This document shows positions 11,742-42,774 of a DNA stretch of 64,000 nucleotides, in pieces. The notes beneath the pieces are model-generated. The model ran no database searches. It was not told the origin of the DNA and saw only the letters and a list, made by a program, of their open reading frames with translations. The position numbers and the translations under genes were made by a program. Every line of letters starts with the position of its first letter. Position 1 is the first letter of the stretch. The stretch spans positions 1 through 64,000 of the IMG/VR virus record IMGVR_UViG_3300001357_000001, one strand, 5' to 3'. This stretch comes from a virus (taxonomy: Duplodnaviria > Heunggongvirae > Uroviricota > Caudoviricetes).

Positions 11742-12680
11742 ATGAGAAATAACAATCTTACTCCGAATAAAGGTCTTAGCCTTTCACAAGCACAATCAAT
11801 TTCAAATCTTTGTCATCAAAGAGCACTTGAAATCAAAGCTGAACTTATTGGAATTAATAATTTCAGTAAAAAAGTGACAATTGATGGTGTTGATAAAATC
11901 CTTTCTAAAGGACATAAACTTCCTGATAATGTTAGTGAGTTACTTGAGAAAAAAGCAAAATTACATGCTTGTCAGGCATTCCTCATGGAAAATATAAAGG
12001 CAAAAGACCACATGCTTAATGCAGCACGTAATGAAGCACCCGATGTTTCAAGTGTTGAGTTTCCTGAAAGACCTAAATTCATTAACCCTGTTGATGGTTC
12101 ATTAGCAATGGTTGATGAAAAATTTGGTTGGTCAAAACTTACTGCTGCCGAATACAATGAATATCTTGAAGCAGAAGCATTTGCTGCACATATTGGTCAA
12201 TTCATACATAAAGACGGTATACTTACTGGATTGAGAAATGAATTACCTCATATTCCAAGTATTGATTGGATAACAATCAAAGATGGTGAGAAAACACCTG
12301 TTAGTATCGAAGTTCATCATGAAGCAAAAGACCTTCTTAAGTTACATGAAGAACTAGCAGCGATGCATCGTGAGAAAGAACAACGAGTGAATTATTTTAA
12401 AGCAAAGGTGAAGAACATCACTACCGAAGAAAATGCTCGTATTGCTAAACACAATGCCGACCTTCAAAACGAAGCAGAAAAAAAGAATAATGATTTGGCT
12501 TCTGCTTATGAGAGAGATTTGAAAAAAGCAAACGAAAAAGTCAATACTATTCGTGCTGAGTTTGAAAAATCTCGTCAAAAGAATATTAGCGAAATCGCTA
12601 GTATGCGTATTCAAATTGATGCTCGTTTCCAAGAAACAATTGATGAATTTTTAACTAAACTTCCTGATAACAAGGAATAA
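11742..12680 (+). CDS. hypothetical coiled-coil protein
   Basis: 312 aa; C-terminal heptad-rich region. Confidence 0.45.
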   Translation: MRNNNLTPNKGLSLSQAQSISNLCHQRALEIKAELIGINNFSKKVTIDGVDKILSKGHKLPDNVSELLEKKAKLHACQAFLMENIKAKDHMLNAARNEAPDVSSVEFPERPKFINPVDGSLAMVDEKFGWSKLTAAEYNEYLEAEAFAAHIGQFIHKDGILTGLRNELPHIPSIDWITIKDGEKTPVSIEVHHEAKDLLKLHEELAAMHREKEQRVNYFKAKVKNITTEENARIAKHNADLQNEAEKKNNDLASAYERDLKKANEKVNTIRAEFEKSRQKNISEIASMRIQIDARFQETIDEFLTKLPDNKE

Positions 12681-14866: not shown

Positions 14867-15169
14867 ATGGATTTTAAATCATTTAAAAAAATAAATATGA
14901 TAGTATTAGAAGAACAAGATTATGATAAATTAGTTATTACTGTTGGTGGTAAAGCAGCAACTGGTAAATCAACAGTTATTTACGTAATTAAGGAAGCATT
15001 AAAAAATGCTGGTTTGGATGTTGAATTCGATGGAGGACTTGATTTTGAAGACGAAGAGGAATTTGACAGTAAATTAAAACCATATATTAAAACAAGAATA
15101 TTTATGATTGACCGTCCGATTAAAATTAATGAAGTGCAATTTGCATTGAAATTAAATAAAAATAAATAA
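14867..15169 (+). CDS. small P-loop NTPase-like protein
   Basis: Walker [11 protein letters not shown]. Confidence 0.35.
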
Positions 15170-15729
15170 TGGAATTTAAAGTCATACCTAACGAACAAAC
15201 ACCAAGAATTGATGATGTTGATGGTGATGTAAGGAAATACATATTAAAATATCGTCATGAACTTCAAGCGTTTTTAGAATATGCTGTAATACGTAAAGAT
15301 GCAGCAGGTCTTGCTGCTAATCAATGTAGTATTGATGAACAGAGATTTATGGTAAGAGCATTTGCATTACGAAGTCAAGTTGACCCTAATAAATGTGAAA
15401 TTATTATAAATCCTAAAATTTTAGAATATATAGGAATAAAGGAAACTAAAATTGAAGGTTGTCTTACTTGGAAAGGTAAATATATTGTTGCTGAACGTAG
15501 TCGTGCTGTAAAAGTAAGATATTATGATATAGATAGTCAACTACATATTGGTATTTTTAAAGGATTTCAAGGACAGGTATGGCAACATGAAATCAATCAT
15601 CTTAATGGTATTGACGAAGTAGTAGTTGAAAATCCACATGTAATACATGAAGCAAAATATGAAAGAAATTCTCCATGTCCATGTGGAAGTGGTAAGAAAT
15701 ATAAAAAATGTTGTTTTTTATTAATATAA
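15169..15729 (+). CDS. def: Peptide deformylase fused to a C-terminal SEC-C zinc-binding motif
   Basis: PDF motifs GLAANQ (motif 1), EGCLT (motif 2), QHEINHLNG (motif 3, HExxH); C-terminal [13 protein letters not shown] matches the SecA/YecA SEC-C motif. Confidence 0.8.
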
Positions 15730-27149: not shown

Positions 27150-27341
27150 AACTAAAAACAGTTAAATTTGATTTTAGTAAATGCAATAAAGAGCAGAAAA
27201 TGATGTTATATGAAGAATGTATTACATTATGTGCGTTAAGCACAACATGTTCTGCTGACCATAAAGAATGTGTTGCATTAATTTATTTAGAAGAAGACAC
27301 AAAGAATAATTAAAGTAATTCTGGACATTGTGTTATGTACA

Positions 27342-27758
27342 TTATTCCCTCCAGTTAGGAGGATTTTTACTATGTACATTGATATAGTGTTCATCAAGGT
27401 CTTCTAACATCTTAAAACATCTGTTCTTTAAAAGATTATATGGTCGATGTACATTACCATAATGGTCAAGCCATAACTTTTTACCTAATTCTGGTGCATG
27501 AGAATAATTCATTTTGTACATTTCAGCTAGTTCATCTTCAATAGCGAATGCTGGCATGGACAATCTACCGACATAATCAAGTACTTTTATAATTTCTTCA
27601 AAAATAGAAATGAAATCATTATCTGAAATCAATTTATTTGTTCTGACTATTTTACTAAGTCTTGCTTTTAATTTTTCAATAATATCTTCTGCTGTTGATA
27701 ATTGATTATCATGATTAGGAAGATTAAAATCTGTTTTAATTAATTCTACTTCTGGCAT
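27342..27758 (-). CDS. hypothetical protein
   Basis: 138 aa; first gene of the minus-strand block. Confidence 0.4.
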   Translation of the reverse strand: MPEVELIKTDFNLPNHDNQLSTAEDIIEKLKARLSKIVRTNKLISDNDFISIFEEIIKVLDYVGRLSMPAFAIEDELAEMYKMNYSHAPELGKKLWLDHYGNVHRPYNLLKNRCFKMLEDLDEHYINVHSKNPPNWRE

Positions 27759-27829
27759 GCATTATTATTTTGCTTTTACATTTTAATATTATTAAATATT
27801 TTCATGATTGTAAAAATAAATAATAATTT

Positions 27830-28615
27830 TTAAATAGAAAAATTATTTGATATTAATTTACATAATTCAATAAAATATTCTTGAGAATGTACGTTTTTCA
27901 TCATATTAATATGTTTATGCACCCACTGTACATTCCCTTCAACATAGCCTAAACTTGAATTAATTCTATCTAATGATGCTGTTTCATCATCTTTATTTCG
28001 TGTAAATGAAAATTTAATTGGTAATCCGCTTAATGCACATTTTTTATATTGTTCAATATATAGTTTCCAAGCAAATTCAATTGTAATATCAAATTTAAAT
28101 TTTCTATCTTCAGCAGATTTTTTTATTCTACCCCAATATCTTCCACTAATATCTTCATATCCTGTAAAACGTGAGTTATTTTTACCTGTAATTTTTAAAT
28201 AACCACTTTTATCACAACCACAAGATTTAGTTTTTCCTAATGCATGAATAGCAACATCAATATTTTTTTTACCACAATCACAATTACATATTGCTCTCCA
28301 TCTACGTTGTTTTCCAGATTTTTCTGTTTGTGCTATTTTCATTACTTCTAAATGTCCAAATTTTTTTCCAATAAGATTATAATTTTTACTGGTTTTTCTA
28401 AATAATGGAATTCTTTTTTGATTTAAAACATTATAAATTGTTTGTTTACTAACAGAAAAATTACATGATTTAATAATTTTAGGTACTTGATAACCTTTAG
28501 AATACATATCAACAATTATTTTTTTTTCTTTTTCAGTAAATTTTAATTTTGTTCCCATATTATTGTAAGTATGCACATAAATACTAACAAATAATATAAA
28601 AGTCTTAGTTAACAT
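27830..28615 (-). CDS. HNH homing endonuclease (N-terminal HTH and zinc finger, C-terminal HNH)
   Basis: ASLDRINSSLGYVEGNVQWVHKHINMMKN is typical of phage HNH homing endonucleases; Cys cluster CNCDCGKK ... CGCDK. Confidence 0.6.
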   Translation of the reverse strand: MLTKTFILFVSIYVHTYNNMGTKLKFTEKEKKIIVDMYSKGYQVPKIIKSCNFSVSKQTIYNVLNQKRIPLFRKTSKNYNLIGKKFGHLEVMKIAQTEKSGKQRRWRAICNCDCGKKNIDVAIHALGKTKSCGCDKSGYLKITGKNNSRFTGYEDISGRYWGRIKKSAEDRKFKFDITIEFAWKLYIEQYKKCALSGLPIKFSFTRNKDDETASLDRINSSLGYVEGNVQWVHKHINMMKNVHSQEYFIELCKLISNNFSI

Positions 28616-33351: not shown

Positions 33352-34551
33352 TTATAAATCTATTAATCTCGATTCAATTATTTTAAGTAATTCACTCATT
33401 GGACGTTCCTCATCGTTTTCACAATTAATTGCTTTTTCGATTGGAAGCTCGTTTTCTTGAATTTTTTTGATTTGTTTTTCAATTTCTTCAACTTCATAAT
33501 CAATATAATCGGATTCGAAATATGATTGTTCAATAATATCAATTTTCCTGTTTTCATATTTTGCAATTGCAAATGGAAAATATTCACACACTCTCATTTT
33601 GCTGTGGTCATAATCAGGAACTGCAACAACATTTGCAGGATTCACATAACATACAAGAACAGTACTATCATTATTTGCAAATGAATTAACGTAAACAGTT
33701 GCTCCGACATGTAAACCATTTGAACAATCTCTGCGGAAATCAGCATCACATTCTTTTCTGTTTTGTTTAACAGGAACACCTAATTCAATATGCATTTTTC
33801 GTGTATGCATGTCGGTAAAAACAGGAACATTCTTTTCTTCTTCTTCGGTACTGGAATTAAATATAGCATCGAATAATTCCTGAAGATTTCCAAGTATTTC
33901 AACACCTTTTTCTTTTTCATCCCATTTTTCAGCAGTACTCACTTTTGTGCTGTTGAAAGTATTGTCTTCAATATTTCTATACACAATGTGTTTCTTAGGA
34001 CTTTCTTTCCAAGTCTTTTTCACATGAAGATAACGATTACTAATGAATTCTGCAAATCTTGTTTCATCAGAGTCTTGGTCGTTTTTCTTATCATATACTG
34101 CTTTATAAACAACCATATAACCATTATCTGTCAATACGAAGTCATGTGTTTTAATGAAGTCAAAAAGTACTGTACGTATTCTCTTATCAGGATTTAACAT
34201 CAATAATTTCCAGAAGTTAATAATTGCATCTAAAGGATATTCATTTTCATGATATTCTTTAATTACTTCAACCAATGTTTCTGGAACAGGAGTATTGAAA
34301 CCCGCAAGATATACTTCACCTGTTTCAGGGTCGTTTTCAAGTCCTGCCATAATAGCAACACGTGTTTTTTCATTCAATAAACCAAGAACATTTTTTATGT
34401 TCTCGTCAGTTGGGTCTTCTTTTGCCTTTAAAGTCATTTTAAATAACTTATCAGCTTCTTCTGATGAACCACAGTTTTTCTGGCGAAGTTTGCCATTAAG
34501 ACTGATTTTCACCATGTTTCCGATTTTAATTACGTTAATGTCTTTTTTCAT
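33352..34551 (-). CDS. rIIB: rIIB-like protein
   Basis: LFDFIKTHDFVLTDNGYMVVYKAV, CSNGLHVGATVY and LVCYVNPANVVAVPDYDHSKMRVCEY resemble T4 rIIB C-terminal blocks, recalled from memory. Confidence 0.5.
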   Translation of the reverse strand: MKKDINVIKIGNMVKISLNGKLRQKNCGSSEEADKLFKMTLKAKEDPTDENIKNVLGLLNEKTRVAIMAGLENDPETGEVYLAGFNTPVPETLVEVIKEYHENEYPLDAIINFWKLLMLNPDKRIRTVLFDFIKTHDFVLTDNGYMVVYKAVYDKKNDQDSDETRFAEFISNRYLHVKKTWKESPKKHIVYRNIEDNTFNSTKVSTAEKWDEKEKGVEILGNLQELFDAIFNSSTEEEEKNVPVFTDMHTRKMHIELGVPVKQNRKECDADFRRDCSNGLHVGATVYVNSFANNDSTVLVCYVNPANVVAVPDYDHSKMRVCEYFPFAIAKYENRKIDIIEQSYFESDYIDYEVEEIEKQIKKIQENELPIEKAINCENDEERPMSELLKIIESRLIDL

Positions 34552-40485: not shown

Positions 40486-42774
40486 CTATGATAAATCCAT
40501 AGCAAGCTGTAAAATTGTTATTTGTTCTTCTTCTAAGTTTTCTGCATTCCAAGGAAGATTAAAATAACTTAATGTTTTAGTATTTTTCTTTTGCAATTCT
40601 TCAACTTCATCTACCCATTCACAAAATTCTTTTTGTTCTTTAGTAGGTTTTACTTTTTGAAAATCAAAATATTGACCTAATTCACTTCTATAATGTTGTA
40701 TTCTACTATCTCTAATATTATTAGGAATTGTATTGATAAAGGCATTAATTTTCTCAATCTTCTTTCCCCAATTATCATCAATTTTATTAATAAAACCTTT
40801 ACGATAAAAATCGGCAAGACCTTGATATTTTTCAACAACACTATATATTTGAAAATATTTCAATATCATGTCTTCTTTTCTCGGCAACATATAGGTAAAG
40901 AAATCTTTTATGTGTCTGGCATTCTTACAATACTTCAAATATTTAGTATTGTTTTTCGATACCTGTATAAACATAATGCTCTTTTTATCACTATCACTTT
41001 TCAAATTTTTTCTATAATCAATACGTCTGACAACAGCATCAGCATCAAATAAGAGTTTAAACAACCTAACTGCTTCATCAAGTTTATAATCATCATCAGT
41101 AGTACCATAGAAAATCGGCATATTATAATCAAATAAATTACCTAACTCAACTCTGTCTCTGGAATAACCGCCAATAAATTTAACAGGAATAGTCTTTTTT
41201 CTAAGTTCAGAACTAAGTTCGTTTTTACGTTTACGACTTTCAATAAATTCTTGTGGTACTTCTAATTCATCATAATCAATTCCATTCTCACGAATGATAT
41301 CGAAATATTCTTCTTGCATATCAATTAATTCCTGAACAAAAGGTAGTGTATTACCTTTGTCATCAACAATATCATCAAGATGTACATTGAATACGTCAGC
41401 AATATCAGAACGTGACCACTTACTAATTATTCTTTTCTTAATAATATAGTATGTCTCGAACTCACTCTTAAGATATGATTGCTTAATCATTTTACGATTA
41501 AACTCACCATCAACATATACTATGTTATTCTTATTTACAATCGTCTCATATCCACCTTCAAATCCGTCTCTACTTGCATAATAACCATATCTTCTTCTAG
41601 GCTTTTTACCATAGGTTTTTGCATCAAAGAAAAATCTAAACAATTGTTTGTCATTAGGCATTTTAGTAAATTGATACTTGAAGTTTGAGAAGTCAATATC
41701 TTTTTGAGTAATTAGATTTCCTACGTACATTGACTTGTTATTAGGAAAAACTAATTTACCGAAGTCATGCTTAACCTGAAAATATTCCTTTAATGTAACA
41801 ATGTCTTCATATTGCTTACTAATTAAAGTAATAATTTCATTCTTAGCTGCTTCTAACTTCTTCTTCAACATTTTGATTGTAGTCTCACTATAATCAAGAC
41901 TCTCACGACTAACTGTAACACCTATGTCACCTACTTCAAGTTTTAGTGCAATTGGTAGACTGTAATCGCTTGAATGTAAATCTAATGCATCATAATCAAT
42001 CGGATAAGCGACTTTACCTAAACACACGTGCATGTTGTTACTATAGTCATCACCACGAAATAAGAAGTTCTTACCTCTGATTATCAGATAATCATTAGTT
42101 AATGTATCATGTTGATATGTGTCTTCAAAACCTTCAAAAATGATGTTTTCGAAGTAATAAAGTTGTCTCACCATTTCTTTAGCAAAAGTGCTAATATCTT
42201 TTTCAAGTACTGGAACTTGGATTTCAGTACCATTTCTTTCTTCTGTTGGTTCTTCATGAAGTTTTGAAATTCGAGGTGTATGTTTACCTTCATATATATG
42301 ATATATGTATTTAATACCATTAAAAACAGTTATAATTTGATATGAATTATCATATTCTGCTTCACCTAAACCTATTTTACGTTTATATGCTAACGGGGTC
42401 TTCGAACCCAACCCAAACGCACCAATCTGGTCATTACTATCACGTTTAGTACTACTAAACATCACAGAAAATATTGTATCTATTCTTTGTGGTGATATTC
42501 CAACACCATAATCAATAAAACTAATATAATGAGTACCCGTTGTATTATCTTGATGTTTTTTTATTAAAACAGGGGCATTAGCTCCTGCTTCAACATGACT
42601 ATCAAAACAATTCGATGTTATCTCACGAACAACACTACCAATAGGATTACTATAAATGTTTTTTGAAAACATTTGAAAAATAATGCTTTGTGAATCATTA
42701 GATAATGTAATATCTTTTTCTTCGGTTGTAGTCAAAACATCAACATCGGAATAACTATTAATATCGTATTTCAT
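40486..42774 (-). CDS. rIIA: rIIA-like protein with an N-terminal GHKL (Hsp90/MORC-type) ATPase domain
   Basis: N box EITSNCFDS, G1 box FIDYGVGIS, G2 box IGAFGLGSKT; 762 aa, comparable in size to T4 rIIA. Confidence 0.55.
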   Translation of the reverse strand: MKYDINSYSDVDVLTTTEEKDITLSNDSQSIIFQMFSKNIYSNPIGSVVREITSNCFDSHVEAGANAPVLIKKHQDNTTGTHYISFIDYGVGISPQRIDTIFSVMFSSTKRDSNDQIGAFGLGSKTPLAYKRKIGLGEAEYDNSYQIITVFNGIKYIYHIYEGKHTPRISKLHEEPTEERNGTEIQVPVLEKDISTFAKEMVRQLYYFENIIFEGFEDTYQHDTLTNDYLIIRGKNFLFRGDDYSNNMHVCLGKVAYPIDYDALDLHSSDYSLPIALKLEVGDIGVTVSRESLDYSETTIKMLKKKLEAAKNEIITLISKQYEDIVTLKEYFQVKHDFGKLVFPNNKSMYVGNLITQKDIDFSNFKYQFTKMPNDKQLFRFFFDAKTYGKKPRRRYGYYASRDGFEGGYETIVNKNNIVYVDGEFNRKMIKQSYLKSEFETYYIIKKRIISKWSRSDIADVFNVHLDDIVDDKGNTLPFVQELIDMQEEYFDIIRENGIDYDELEVPQEFIESRKRKNELSSELRKKTIPVKFIGGYSRDRVELGNLFDYNMPIFYGTTDDDYKLDEAVRLFKLLFDADAVVRRIDYRKNLKSDSDKKSIMFIQVSKNNTKYLKYCKNARHIKDFFTYMLPRKEDMILKYFQIYSVVEKYQGLADFYRKGFINKIDDNWGKKIEKINAFINTIPNNIRDSRIQHYRSELGQYFDFQKVKPTKEQKEFCEWVDEVEELQKKNTKTLSYFNLPWNAENLEEEQITILQLAMDLS

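What the first reader, a model, noticed from the sequence alone, without database searches (positions are those of the whole stretch)
15169..15729. Phage peptide deformylase fused to a SEC-C zinc motif
All three PDF catalytic motifs are present. The protein ends in [13 protein letters not shown], the SecA/YecA-type SEC-C metal-binding motif, in place of the usual PDF C-terminal helix. The fusion may retarget the enzyme, for example to the ribosome or to SecB. Phage PDFs are known, but I am not aware of this fusion having been described.
Basis: partly seen in the sequence, partly recalled or inferred. Interest (0 to 1): 0.65.

Follow-up and report, generated by a model that had tools for sequence, protein, structure and literature searches.

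The report
Phage peptide deformylase with SecA-like tail
A giant bacteriophage encodes a peptide deformylase (the enzyme that removes the formyl group from new proteins) whose end carries the small metal-binding knob that SecA uses to hold ribosomes and SecB. The fusion is real, common in uncultured phages, apparently undescribed, and probably docks the enzyme on the host ribosome.

Summary
ORF 15169-15729 (+, 186 aa) scores above Pfam's cut-offs for both Pep_deformylase (residues 41-148, E 2e-21) and SEC-C (residues 166-182, E 6e-10). An AlphaFold model (pLDDT 90.8) shows a deformylase core that ends at the motif III helix. No C-terminal helix follows. Instead there is a ~25-residue linker and then [17 protein letters not shown], almost identical to the solved SecA and YchJ metal-binding domains.

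The fusion is not a one-off. Hundreds of metagenomic proteins share the architecture, and 106 of the best 150 cluster representatives at 50% identity carry the tail. Every context I inspected is phage-like, including a 348-kb contig holding this exact gene and a published 634-kb huge phage. Five "bacterial" MAG hits lie on probable mis-binned phage contigs. I found no tailed copy in cultured phages, in the top plasmid hits, or in the searched literature, which says viral deformylases lack a ribosome-binding C-terminus.

Best explanation (inferred, not shown): an active deformylase tethered near the ribosomal exit tunnel by its SecA-like domain. Rivals are SecB coupling, a metal or redox switch, and ribosome-site competition.

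Side findings: an HNH endonuclease inserted in frame inside the SEC-C motif, and the same deformylase clade embedded in giant polyvalent proteins.

The parts
15169..15729 (+). Complete gene for the deformylase-SEC-C fusion protein (186 aa plus TAA stop)
   Evidence: ORF list and sequence. An identical protein, P0001, is found on a 348,137-bp contig and on a 26-kb contig from an Elkhorn Slough mat.
15169..15618 (+). Peptide deformylase catalytic core, residues 1-150, including the N-terminal VIPNEQTP segment
   Evidence: Pfam PF01327, E 2.4e-21. AlphaFold2 pLDDT is 90-97 over this stretch. Foldseek gives probability 1.0 to solved deformylases over about 150 columns.
15301..15324 (+). Motif I, AAGLAANQ (residues 45-52; Q52 corresponds to the conserved motif I glutamine)
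   Evidence: Read from the sequence. G47, L48, A49, N51 and Q52 are invariant in 27 homologues.
15454..15468 (+). Motif II, EGCLT (residues 96-100; C98 is a metal ligand)
   Evidence: Read from the sequence. E96 to W101 are invariant.
15583..15600 (+). Motif III, QHEINH (residues 139-144; H140 and H144 are metal ligands, E141 is catalytic; Asn replaces the usual Asp)
   Evidence: Read from the sequence and invariant in the alignment. Across the wider family the position is Asp in 51 and Asn in 37 tailed cluster representatives.
15601..15663 (+). Linker between motif III and the SEC-C domain (residues 145-165): a short strand at 151-153, then non-helical chain. It occupies the place of the alpha-3 ribosome-binding helix of type 1B deformylases.
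   Evidence: Secondary structure of the AlphaFold2 model. The distance from motif III to the first Cys is 19-42 residues, median 26, in 93 tailed cluster representatives.
15664..15714 (+). SecA-like metal-binding domain (SEC-C), [17 protein letters not shown] (residues 166-182). Predicted ligands are C170, C172, C181 and C182. The conserved Ser174 and Tyr178 are present.
   Evidence: Pfam PF02810, E 5.6e-10. Near-identity to SecA 1sx0, 1tm6 and 1ozb and to YchJ-C 9l6b. The motif is almost invariant in 119, 101 and 92 homologues. It is the only such motif in the window.
15715..15726 (+). Hydrophobic C-terminal end, FLLI (residues 183-186); function unknown
   Evidence: At least two hydrophobic residues follow the CC in 117 of 119 close relatives, but in only 21 of 101 and 11 of 92 sequences of the wider family. 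pLDDT is about 50.
14867..15169 (+). Upstream 100-aa ORF whose TAA stop overlaps the deformylase ATG by one base (TAATG). The gene lies in a long run of co-directional small genes.
   Evidence: The same gene order is seen on the 348-kb and 26-kb contigs.

Best explanation
The gene encodes a catalytically competent phage peptide deformylase. Where bacterial type 1B enzymes have a C-terminal helix that binds the ribosome, this protein has a flexible linker of about 25 residues ending in a SecA-type metal-binding domain (MBD, Cys4, binding zinc or iron).

Proposed mechanism: during infection the MBD docks on the host 70S ribosome beside the polypeptide exit tunnel. The linker lets the catalytic core reach emerging N-formyl-methionine ends. 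This raises co-translational deformylation capacity while phage proteins are made in bulk.

Shown here:
- both domains are present;
- the catalytic residues are intact;
- no C-terminal helix is predicted;
- the MBD sequence is extremely conserved across a large family found only in phage-like contexts.

Inferred:
- deformylase activity;
- metal binding;
- ribosome docking and its site;
- any benefit to the phage.
For: Domain identity and fold:
- Both Pfam domains pass their cut-offs.
- The model has pLDDT 90.8, with its last helix at 132-146 and no alpha-3 helix.
- Only the core, about 150 columns, superposes on solved deformylases.

The tail is a SecA-type MBD:
- The tail [17 protein letters not shown] aligns without gaps to the E. 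coli SecA MBD (1sx0), with identical residues at nearly every position.

Conservation pattern:
- Across three sets of homologues (119, 101 and 92 sequences) the four Cys are 100% conserved in two sets; in the third the last ligand is His in 3% (97-100% overall).
- The Ser is 97-100% conserved, the two central Lys 99-100%, the aromatic residue 94-100%, and the preceding Arg-Asn 85-100%.
- The deformylase cores are only 30-55% identical.
- This pattern suggests a conserved external partner rather than a mere structural knuckle.

Published behaviour of SecA-like MBDs:
- The last 27 residues of SecA fused to SUMO co-sediment with 70S ribosomes, and the SecA tail crosslinks to uL23 at the tunnel exit (PMC6620043).
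- YecA binds ribosomes and SecB only when its MBD is present (10.1101/2020.07.21.215244).
- Methionine aminopeptidases of many bacteria, which catalyse the next step of the same pathway, carry a SecA-like MBD (10.1101/613315). NCBIfam PRK12318 MetAP weakly matches this tail.

What the tail replaces:
- The C-terminal helix of E. coli deformylase is its ribosome anchor, at uL22/uL32 (PMC12690207).
- Known viral deformylases are described as lacking that region (PMC5591237).

Host breadth:
- The fusion occurs in phages with almost no Shine-Dalgarno use (window 2 of 97 genes; 19 of 398 genes in related loci).
- It also occurs in phages that use Shine-Dalgarno sites at 33-80% of genes.
- The hosts therefore probably differ widely, which suggests a universally conserved partner such as the ribosome.
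Against: - No experiment exists on this protein or on any member of its family.
- MBD-ribosome binding is documented only for E. coli SecA and YecA, with micromolar affinity, and the exact MBD site on the ribosome is not resolved.
- Phage deformylases without any tail are active in vivo (PMC5591237), so a tether is not strictly required.
- Tail-less relatives exist within the same clade (L031, L032).
- The linker and tail have intermediate pLDDT (86, 74, 73, 50), so the tail might pack on the core rather than swing free. I could not inspect the model coordinates.
- The protein scores below the NCBIfam equivalog cut-off for bacterial Def (70.8 against 103.95 bits).
- Motifs I and III deviate slightly from the consensus, so full activity is assumed, not shown.
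Confidence: 0.5

Rival explanations
1. SecB or Sec-pathway coupling. The MBD binds the host chaperone SecB, its best-characterised partner. This would place the deformylase on the post-translational export route or interfere with SecA-SecB hand-over.
For: The tail matches the SecA peptide co-crystallised with SecB (1ozb) over [16 protein letters not shown]. YecA binds SecB through the same domain with a KD of about 150 nM.
Against: - Deformylation concerns all nascent chains, not only secreted ones.
- 52 of the 156 species surveyed for SecA keep an MBD although they lack SecB (PMC6620043).
- The closest relatives sit in low-GC phages almost without Shine-Dalgarno sites, and one of them is a 634-kb phage predicted to infect Bacteroidetes. 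From my own knowledge, SecB is essentially a proteobacterial protein.
- The motif is equally conserved in phages with clearly different translation-signal usage.
Confidence: 0.12
2. Metal or redox switch, or structural cap. The Cys4 knuckle senses or buffers Fe/Zn or oxidation. Alternatively it simply stabilises the C-terminal end of the catalytic core, as the last residue does in Vp16 deformylase.
For: - SecA-like MBDs bind iron preferentially, and the conserved Ser sets that preference. Deformylase is itself an Fe(II) enzyme (my own knowledge).
- The C-terminal SEC-C cysteines of YchJ act as a switch sensitive to reactive oxygen species (PMC13377102).
- The C-terminal residue of Vp16 deformylase locks the active conformation.
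- pLDDT of the tail is intermediate rather than very low.
Against: A purely structural or sensing role does not explain why the surface Lys, Arg and Asn residues (RN..KKYKK), which are not metal ligands, are 85-100% conserved while the enzyme core drifts to 30% identity. Linker length varies from 19 to 42 residues, which fits a tether better than a fixed cap.
Confidence: 0.15
3. Competitive occupation of the ribosome exit site as host takeover. The tail's main purpose is to displace host MBD proteins (SecA, YecA, MetAP) from ribosomes, with catalysis secondary.
For: The same deformylase clade is also embedded, without the tail, in giant polyvalent proteins together with ADP-ribosyltransferase and acetyltransferase domains typical of conflict systems. 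The MBD is a near-perfect copy of the host motif.
Against: All catalytic residues are invariant across the family, which argues that catalysis is selected. There is no evidence that the protein is abundant enough to compete.
Confidence: 0.08
4. Generic polyanion or membrane binding. The Lys-rich knuckle, together with the hydrophobic FLLI end in this subfamily, targets the enzyme to nucleic acid or to the membrane rather than to a specific ribosomal site.
For: - The Lys cluster of the YchJ C-terminal SEC-C binds DNA.
- Azide, which disrupts iron binding by the MBD, also disrupted SecA binding to membranes (abstract).
- The hydrophobic LLL[IL] end is conserved in 117 of 119 close relatives.
Against: The hydrophobic end is absent from most of the wider family, so it cannot explain the fusion as a whole. 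The exact SecA-type spacing and residues are kept, not just positive charge.
Confidence: 0.1

Closest known systems
Bacterial type 1B peptide deformylase (E. coli Def; PF01327, TIGR00079)
   Same: Same fold and catalytic motifs. Presumably the same reaction on nascent chains, and likewise expected to work at the ribosome.
   Different: It lacks the C-terminal alpha-3 helix that anchors Def between uL22 and uL32. It scores below the TIGR00079 equivalog cut-off (70.8 against 103.95 bits). Motif III is HEINH, and the first Gly of motif I is Ala.
Described phage deformylases (Vp16 PDF 5mtc; cyanophage S-SSM7 PDF 3uwa; 'type 4' marine viral PDFs)
   Same: Phage-encoded deformylases with a conserved catalytic site.
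   Different: [quoted passage not shown] This family adds a linker and MBD of about 40 residues. Identity to them is only about 23-28%.
SecA C-terminal metal-binding domain and its paralogous uses in YecA (AscA) and YchJ
   Same: The same CxCxSx6CC motif with conserved Ser, aromatic residue and Lys cluster, placed at the extreme C-terminus after a flexible linker. In SecA and YecA the domain mediates ribosome and SecB binding.
   Different: Here it is attached to a nascent-chain processing enzyme in a virus, not to a translocase or chaperone. The last ligand is Cys (YecA/YchJ type), not the His of E. coli SecA.
Bacterial methionine aminopeptidases with an N-terminal SEC-C motif (NCBIfam PRK12318), and eukaryotic MetAP1 with an N-terminal zinc-finger domain
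   Same: An N-terminal-methionine-excision enzyme fused to a small zinc module. The MetAP case has been cited as support for MBD-ribosome interaction. There is a weak match to PRK12318. That the yeast MetAP1 zinc fingers are needed for ribosome association comes from my own knowledge.
   Different: A different enzyme (the next step in the pathway), with the module at the N-terminus rather than the C-terminus, in cellular rather than viral proteins.

Membership tests
Peptide deformylase (Pfam PF01327) | Profile match above the curated gathering score | tested here: met
   76.4 bits against 22.8, E 2.4e-21, residues 41-148. PHROG 2890, E 3.9e-22.
Peptide deformylase (Pfam PF01327) | Three catalytic motifs (GxGxAAxQ, EGCLS, HExxH) with the Cys and two His metal ligands, the catalytic Glu and the motif I Gln | tested here: met
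   The motifs are [13 protein letters not shown] and QHEINH. Q52, C98, H140, E141 and H144 are invariant in 27 homologues. Deviations: first Gly to Ala, Ser to Thr, Asp to Asn.
Peptide deformylase (Pfam PF01327) | Deformylase fold | tested here: met
   AlphaFold2 pLDDT 90.8. Foldseek probability 1.0, TM 0.55-0.76 to solved deformylases over about 150 columns. This is a prediction, not a solved structure.
Peptide deformylase (Pfam PF01327) | Deformylase activity on N-formyl-Met peptides | not testable with these tools
   Needs an enzyme assay or complementation of a def-conditional strain.
Bacterial Def equivalog (NCBIfam TIGR00079) | Score above the equivalog cut-off | tested here: not met
   70.8 bits against a cut-off of 103.95. 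It is a divergent deformylase, not an orthologue of the housekeeping Def.
Type 1B deformylase | C-terminal alpha-3 helix that binds the ribosome | tested here: not met
   No helix is predicted after residue 146. Alignments to solved type 1B enzymes stop at about residue 147-150.
Short-tailed viral deformylases (Vp16-like / type 4) | C-terminus truncated shortly after motif III | tested here: not met
   42 residues follow H144, including a complete SEC-C domain.
SEC-C / SecA-like metal-binding domain (Pfam PF02810) | Profile match above the gathering score, and the CxCx8C[CH] ligand pattern | tested here: met
   39.3 bits against 20.4, E 5.6e-10. The pattern is [13 protein letters not shown].
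SEC-C / SecA-like metal-binding domain (Pfam PF02810) | Conserved non-ligand residues of SecA-type MBDs (Ser after CxCx, aromatic residue, Lys cluster, preceding Arg-Asn) | tested here: met
   S174, Y178, K176, K177, K179, K180, R166 and N167 are present. The alignment to 1sx0, 1tm6, 1ozb and 9l6b is near-identical, and these positions are conserved across the family.
SEC-C / SecA-like metal-binding domain (Pfam PF02810) | Binds Zn or Fe; binds ribosomes and/or SecB | not testable with these tools
   Shown only for SecA and YecA of E. coli.
Phage polyvalent proteins (ART-PolyVal / LPD-containing giants) | Deformylase domain embedded in a multi-domain protein of about 900 aa or more, with polyvalent-protein marker domains | tested here: not met
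   The window protein is a free-standing 186-aa ORF. Relatives L005, P0160, P0168, P0177 and P0204 do meet this criterion.

The most novel reading that the evidence does not exclude
The 17-residue SecA-type metal-binding domain may be a portable, host-independent tag for the ribosome exit site, which phages have captured to give their own deformylase a docking mode different from the host enzyme's uL22/uL32 helix.

The same deformylase clade has also been built into giant polyvalent proteins of the kind thought to enter the cell with phage DNA. Phages may therefore act on N-terminal formyl processing (and so on fMet-dependent protein fate) from early in infection.

If this is right, the family gives the first natural case in which MBD-ribosome binding can be studied free of SecA and SecB. 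It would also overturn the statement that viral deformylases lack a ribosome-binding region.
Probability: 0.35. Interest if true: 0.72.

Novelty: new variant of a known kind. Interest (0 to 1): 0.55.

Why it matters
Deformylase, methionine aminopeptidase, trigger factor, SRP and SecA compete for a few docking sites at the ribosomal tunnel exit, and how that traffic is organised is an open question.

- **A natural test of the MBD.** A compact fusion of deformylase with the SecA metal-binding domain directly tests whether that domain is an autonomous ribosome-targeting tag. It would also show where the domain sits on the ribosome.
- **A correction to the literature.** The fusion challenges the published generalisation that viral deformylases lack a ribosome-binding C-terminus. 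It shows that the trait is widespread among uncultured phages, including huge ones.
- **Practical use.** A tag of about 20 residues that delivers enzymes to nascent chains would be useful in synthetic biology. Phage deformylases with a different docking mode also bear on resistance to deformylase inhibitors.

It remains a domain fusion of two known modules. Automated Pfam annotation already detects both domains, which limits the surprise.

Tried and rejected
1. **[quoted passage not shown]**
 - It holds for the window's subfamily: 19 of 398 genes with an SD-like motif, against 26 of 50 in loci with tail-less relatives.
 - It fails as a general rule. Deeper-branching deformylase-SEC-C genes sit in loci where 33-80% of genes have SD-like motifs.

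2. **The 206-aa insertion that splits the SEC-C motif in L018, L025 and P0129.**
 - Not a recognised group I intron: no Rfam match at E up to 1, and the whole insert is open reading frame.
 - Not an intein by Pfam: only the HNH_3 domain matches, with no Hint domain.

3. **A conserved functional neighbour.** Only one flanking gene recurs (window 11742-12680, 312 aa, in 12 of 34 loci). It has no Pfam or PHROG family. No gene related to translation or secretion is consistently adjacent.

4. **Cellular copies.**
 - All GTDB hits are MAG contigs, at least some of them phage.
 - A "Caldisericia MAG" protein lies in a phage-like run of small genes.
 - A Proteus "plasmid" hit that seemed to align through the tail is an ordinary Def with a C-terminal helix.
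 - Vibrio phage hits are 138-aa tail-less deformylases.

5. **AFDB survey of UniProt for the architecture.** The library was not available. BFVD holds only core-only viral deformylases at 19-26% identity.

6. **"The tail is ancestral to the whole family."** The NJ tree suggests this, but it is star-like. The sequences were also chosen with a profile that includes the tail, which biases sampling. I treat the suggestion as tentative.
Full report
**1. The observation**

The window holds an ATG-initiated ORF at 15169..15729 on the + strand, 186 aa with a TAA stop. Its start codon overlaps the stop of the preceding ORF by one base, inside a long run of co-directional small genes.

Pfam-A gives two matches above its curated cut-offs:
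- Pep_deformylase PF01327, residues 41-148, E 2.4e-21, 76.4 bits against 22.8.
- SEC-C PF02810, residues 166-182, E 5.6e-10, 39.3 bits against 20.4.

PHROGs assigns the core to phrog_2890 'peptide deformylase'. NCBIfam finds the deformylase families, but below the equivalog cut-off for bacterial Def (70.8 against 103.95 bits). It matches the tail to SEC-C proteins of the YecA and YchJ type, and weakly to the SEC-C-bearing methionine aminopeptidase PRK12318.

The three catalytic motifs are [13 protein letters not shown] and QHEINH. The predicted metal ligands C98, H140 and H144, the catalytic E141 and Q52 are invariant in 27 homologues.

The tail [17 protein letters not shown] aligns almost residue for residue with the solved SecA metal-binding domains (1sx0, 1tm6, 1ozb) and with YchJ-C (9l6b). 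It is the only such motif in the 64-kb window.

**2. Structure**

An AlphaFold2 model built on the 27-sequence alignment has mean pLDDT 90.8 and pTM 0.86. The core, residues 1-150, is confident.

The last helix is 132-146, which carries motif III. After it come a three-residue strand (151-153) and non-helical chain with pLDDT 86, 74, 73 and 50. No counterpart of the alpha-3 helix of type 1B deformylases is predicted.

Foldseek against the PDB returns deformylases from bacteria, Plasmodium, plant organelles and phages S-SSM7 and Vp16. Probability is 1.0, but only about 150 columns align. A profile search of PDB sequences behaves the same way, ending at about profile position 147.

**3. Setting**

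The window is phage DNA. It encodes RIIA (40486-42774, -), RIIB (33352-34551, -), a DNA methyltransferase, a radical-SAM protein and an HNH endonuclease. GC content is 28.8%.

The identical protein lies on a 348,137-bp assembled contig, and on a 26-kb contig from an Elkhorn Slough microbial mat with the same gene order.

Flanking genes are small and mostly without families. Only one neighbour recurs in related loci, a 312-aa ORF present in 12 of 34 loci, with no known family.

**4. How common is the fusion, and where?**

- A word-indexed search of 5.8 billion proteins found 741 relatives. Of the best 120, 119 carry both Pfam domains. They are 183-232 aa long, and some lie on contigs of 229-366 kb.
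- An exhaustive HMMER search of 1.84 billion cluster representatives at 50% identity found 129 clusters at E up to 1e-30. Of the best 150, 106 have CxCx(7-9)C[CH] close to the C-terminus.
- A search seeded with a deep-branching member (P0269) revealed a further set at 30-50% identity. These have more canonical motifs (GIGLAANQ, EGCLSF, QHEIDHLNG), and most again carry both domains.

Every genomic context I examined is phage-like:
- IMG/VR contigs of up to 362 kb.
- TARA Oceans contigs with a gp25 baseplate gene.
- Contigs with Phage_tube_2, Phage_Mu_F, Phage_capsid, a DnaB-primase fusion, SSB and PD-(D/E)xK nuclease genes.

In 185,579 GTDB species genomes the family-specific patterns hit only five MAG contigs. 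One, labelled Paceibacterota, is the same 362,763-bp contig that IMG/VR lists as viral. Two others carry NAMPT/NUDIX genes or HNH/sigma-factor genes typical of large phages. These patterns were specific to the window's subfamily, so the scan says nothing about SEC-C tails on other deformylase lineages.

Among 50,697 GenBank phage records, the only full-length match that includes the tail is LR745206.1. This is an uncultured 634,780-bp genome, matching in length the 634-kb genome of the 'Mahaphage' clade, whose largest members are predicted to infect Bacteroidetes (PMC7162821). Cultured-phage deformylases match only the core.

No tailed copy appeared among the top hits in 72,556 plasmid records. 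BFVD holds only distant, core-only viral deformylases.

**5. Conservation pattern**

The deformylase cores diverge to 30-55% identity. The tail is almost frozen. In sets of 119, 101 and 92 sequences:
- the four Cys ligands are 100% conserved in two sets; in the third the last ligand is His in 3%;
- the Ser is 97-100% conserved;
- the two central Lys are 99-100% conserved;
- the aromatic residue is 94-100% conserved;
- the preceding Arg-Asn is 85-100% conserved.

These include the non-ligand positions that are conserved in SecA, YecA and YchJ. The spacer between motif III and the first Cys varies from 19 to 42 residues, median 26, as expected for a tether.

A hydrophobic end (LLL[IL]; FLLI here) follows the CC in 117 of 119 close relatives but is rare in the wider family. 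I have no explanation for it.

**6. Mechanism**

Published work supplies these pieces:
- The C-terminal helix of E. coli Def is its ribosome anchor, at uL22/uL32 (summarised in PMC12690207).
- Viral deformylases have been described as lacking this region, yet some are active (PMC5591237).
- The last 27 residues of SecA fused to SUMO co-sediment with 70S ribosomes. The SecA tail crosslinks to uL23. [quoted passage not shown] And 52 species keep the domain in SecA although they lack SecB (PMC6620043).
- YecA binds ribosomes (micromolar, 1:1) and SecB (about 150 nM) only through its MBD.
- Many bacterial methionine aminopeptidases carry a SecA-like MBD, which was taken as support for a ribosome-related role.

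I therefore think the most likely function is a ribosome tether that replaces the alpha-3 helix and places an active deformylase at the tunnel exit. The benefit would be more co-translational deformylation capacity during massive phage protein synthesis. The fMet-degron rationale behind that benefit comes from my own knowledge.

One further argument comes from translation signals. The window's subfamily lives in genomes nearly devoid of Shine-Dalgarno motifs (2 of 97 genes in the window; 19 of 398 in related loci). The deeper-branching fusions live in loci where 33-80% of genes have them. The hosts are evidently diverse, yet the tail is unchanged. This suggests a universally conserved partner such as the ribosome, more than SecB.

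None of this has been demonstrated for this protein. I put the ribosome-tether model at 0.5. The rivals are:
- SecB coupling (0.12);
- a metal or redox switch or structural cap (0.15), supported by iron binding of MBDs and the redox switch in YchJ;
- competitive occupation of the exit site (0.08);
- generic polyanion or membrane binding (0.10).

**7. Comparison with what is known, and novelty**

The protein is a member of the deformylase superfamily and of the SEC-C family by profile, motif and predicted fold.
- It is not an equivalog of housekeeping Def (below cut-off).
- It is not a type 1B enzyme in its C-terminus (no helix).
- It is not one of the short-tailed viral forms.

The nearest functional analogy is the SEC-C-bearing methionine aminopeptidases.

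Full-text searches combining 'peptide deformylase' or 'deformylase' with 'SEC-C', 'SecA-like', 'metal-binding domain' or 'polyvalent protein' returned no paper describing the fusion. A 2025 RefSeq-wide survey of accessory deformylases, which I text-searched rather than read in full, gave no hit for 'zinc' and describes only a def-fmt fusion as its 'unusual case'.

The architecture is nevertheless visible to automated Pfam annotation. I rate it a new variant of a known kind, of moderate interest (0.55).

**8. Side findings**

- **HNH endonuclease inside the SEC-C motif.** In L018, L025 and P0129, a 206-aa HNH_3 endonuclease with a helix-turn-helix-like segment and a zinc ribbon sits in frame exactly inside the motif (CPCG | insert | KKYKxCC). 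Both half-motifs are intact. The deformylase parts are 51% identical and the inserts 58%. It is neither a recognisable group I intron nor an intein (no Hint domain).
- **Deformylase inside polyvalent proteins.** The same clade occurs without a tail inside giant polyvalent proteins of 942-3395 aa, together with ART-PolyVal, LPD3, GNAT, ParB_N, hemerythrin and PARP-like domains. These form one clade in a rough NJ tree.
- **EF-Tu fragment.** One member has the first ~55 residues of EF-Tu fused in frame upstream.
- **Tail-less relatives.** Proteins of 145-165 aa without the tail exist in genomes that use Shine-Dalgarno sites.

**9. Limits**

- I could not survey UniProt/AFDB for the architecture, so rare cellular copies cannot be excluded.
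- The tree is a star-like NJ tree built on biased sampling.
- Model coordinates could not be inspected.
- Host assignment rests on Shine-Dalgarno usage, GC content and one published prediction for a 49%-identical relative.

Noticed in passing
L018:5001-6173 (IMGVR_UViG_3300035698_003967), L025:4980-6170 (IMGVR_UViG_3300000230_000013), and protein P0129: A 206-aa HNH_3 homing-endonuclease-like module (helix-turn-helix-like segment, HNH, zinc ribbon) is inserted in frame exactly inside the SEC-C motif of the deformylase (CPCG | insert | KKYKxCC). Both half-motifs and the reading frame are kept in three divergent genes: the deformylase parts are 51% identical, the inserts 58%. No group I intron was found by Rfam and no intein (Hint) domain by Pfam. 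It is either repeated homing into the conserved SEC-C coding sequence or a tolerated domain insertion in the metal-binding loop.
   Followed up: partly
L005:3858-8132 (JAVTWD010000016.1, a 375-kb contig binned as Bacteroidota); proteins P0160, P0168, P0177, P0204: The same deformylase clade (IPNEQTP N-terminus), without the SEC-C tail, is embedded in giant polyvalent proteins of 942-3395 aa. These also carry ART-PolyVal, LPD3, GNAT, ParB_N, hemerythrin and PARP-like domains. They cluster together in a rough NJ tree. I found no paper that mentions a deformylase domain in polyvalent proteins.
   Followed up: partly
L029:4746-5585 (IMGVR_UViG_3300031565_000046); protein P0175: A 279-aa ORF in which the first ~55 residues of EF-Tu (GTP_EFTU profile positions 1-60, E 1.5e-10, including GHIDHGKTTL) lie in frame upstream of a complete deformylase-SEC-C. 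It may be a gene remnant or a real fusion.
   Followed up: no
Whole window 1-64000, and loci L003-L037: Shine-Dalgarno-like motifs (GGAG, GAGG or AGGA at -20 to -5) precede only 2 of 97 predicted genes in the window, and 19 of 398 genes in 28 related loci. GC content of these loci is 25-38%. This fits hosts that do not use SD sites, such as Bacteroidota. Loci with tail-less relatives (L031, L032, L036) and the deeper-branching fusions (L038-L044) show 33-83%.
   Followed up: yes
window:11742-12680 (+): A 312-aa ORF with no Pfam or PHROG family is the only neighbour that recurs near the deformylase gene, within 5 kb in 12 of 34 related loci. Its function is unknown.
   Followed up: partly
window:33352-34551 (-) and 40486-42774 (-); orientation switch near 27150-27830: RIIB-like and RIIA-like genes lie on the minus strand. 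ORFs of 150 aa or more run on the + strand up to about 27.1 kb and on the - strand from about 27.8 kb (convergent arrangement). No tRNA genes were found in the 64 kb.
   Followed up: no
window:15715-15726 (+): The hydrophobic C-terminal end after the CC pair (FLLI; consensus LLL[IL]) is conserved in 117 of 119 close relatives but is rare in the wider deformylase-SEC-C family. It is absent from the solved SecA and YchJ-C peptides aligned. Its role is unexplained.
   Followed up: partly
L003 (JBAZIW010000001.1, 'Paceibacterota' MAG), L039 (JBBAAU010000004.1, 'Caldisericia' MAG), L005, L006, L007: Large contigs (36-375 kb) deposited within bacterial MAGs look like mis-binned huge-phage genomes. 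L003 is the same 362,763-bp contig as IMGVR_UViG_3300029288_000055.
   Followed up: partly
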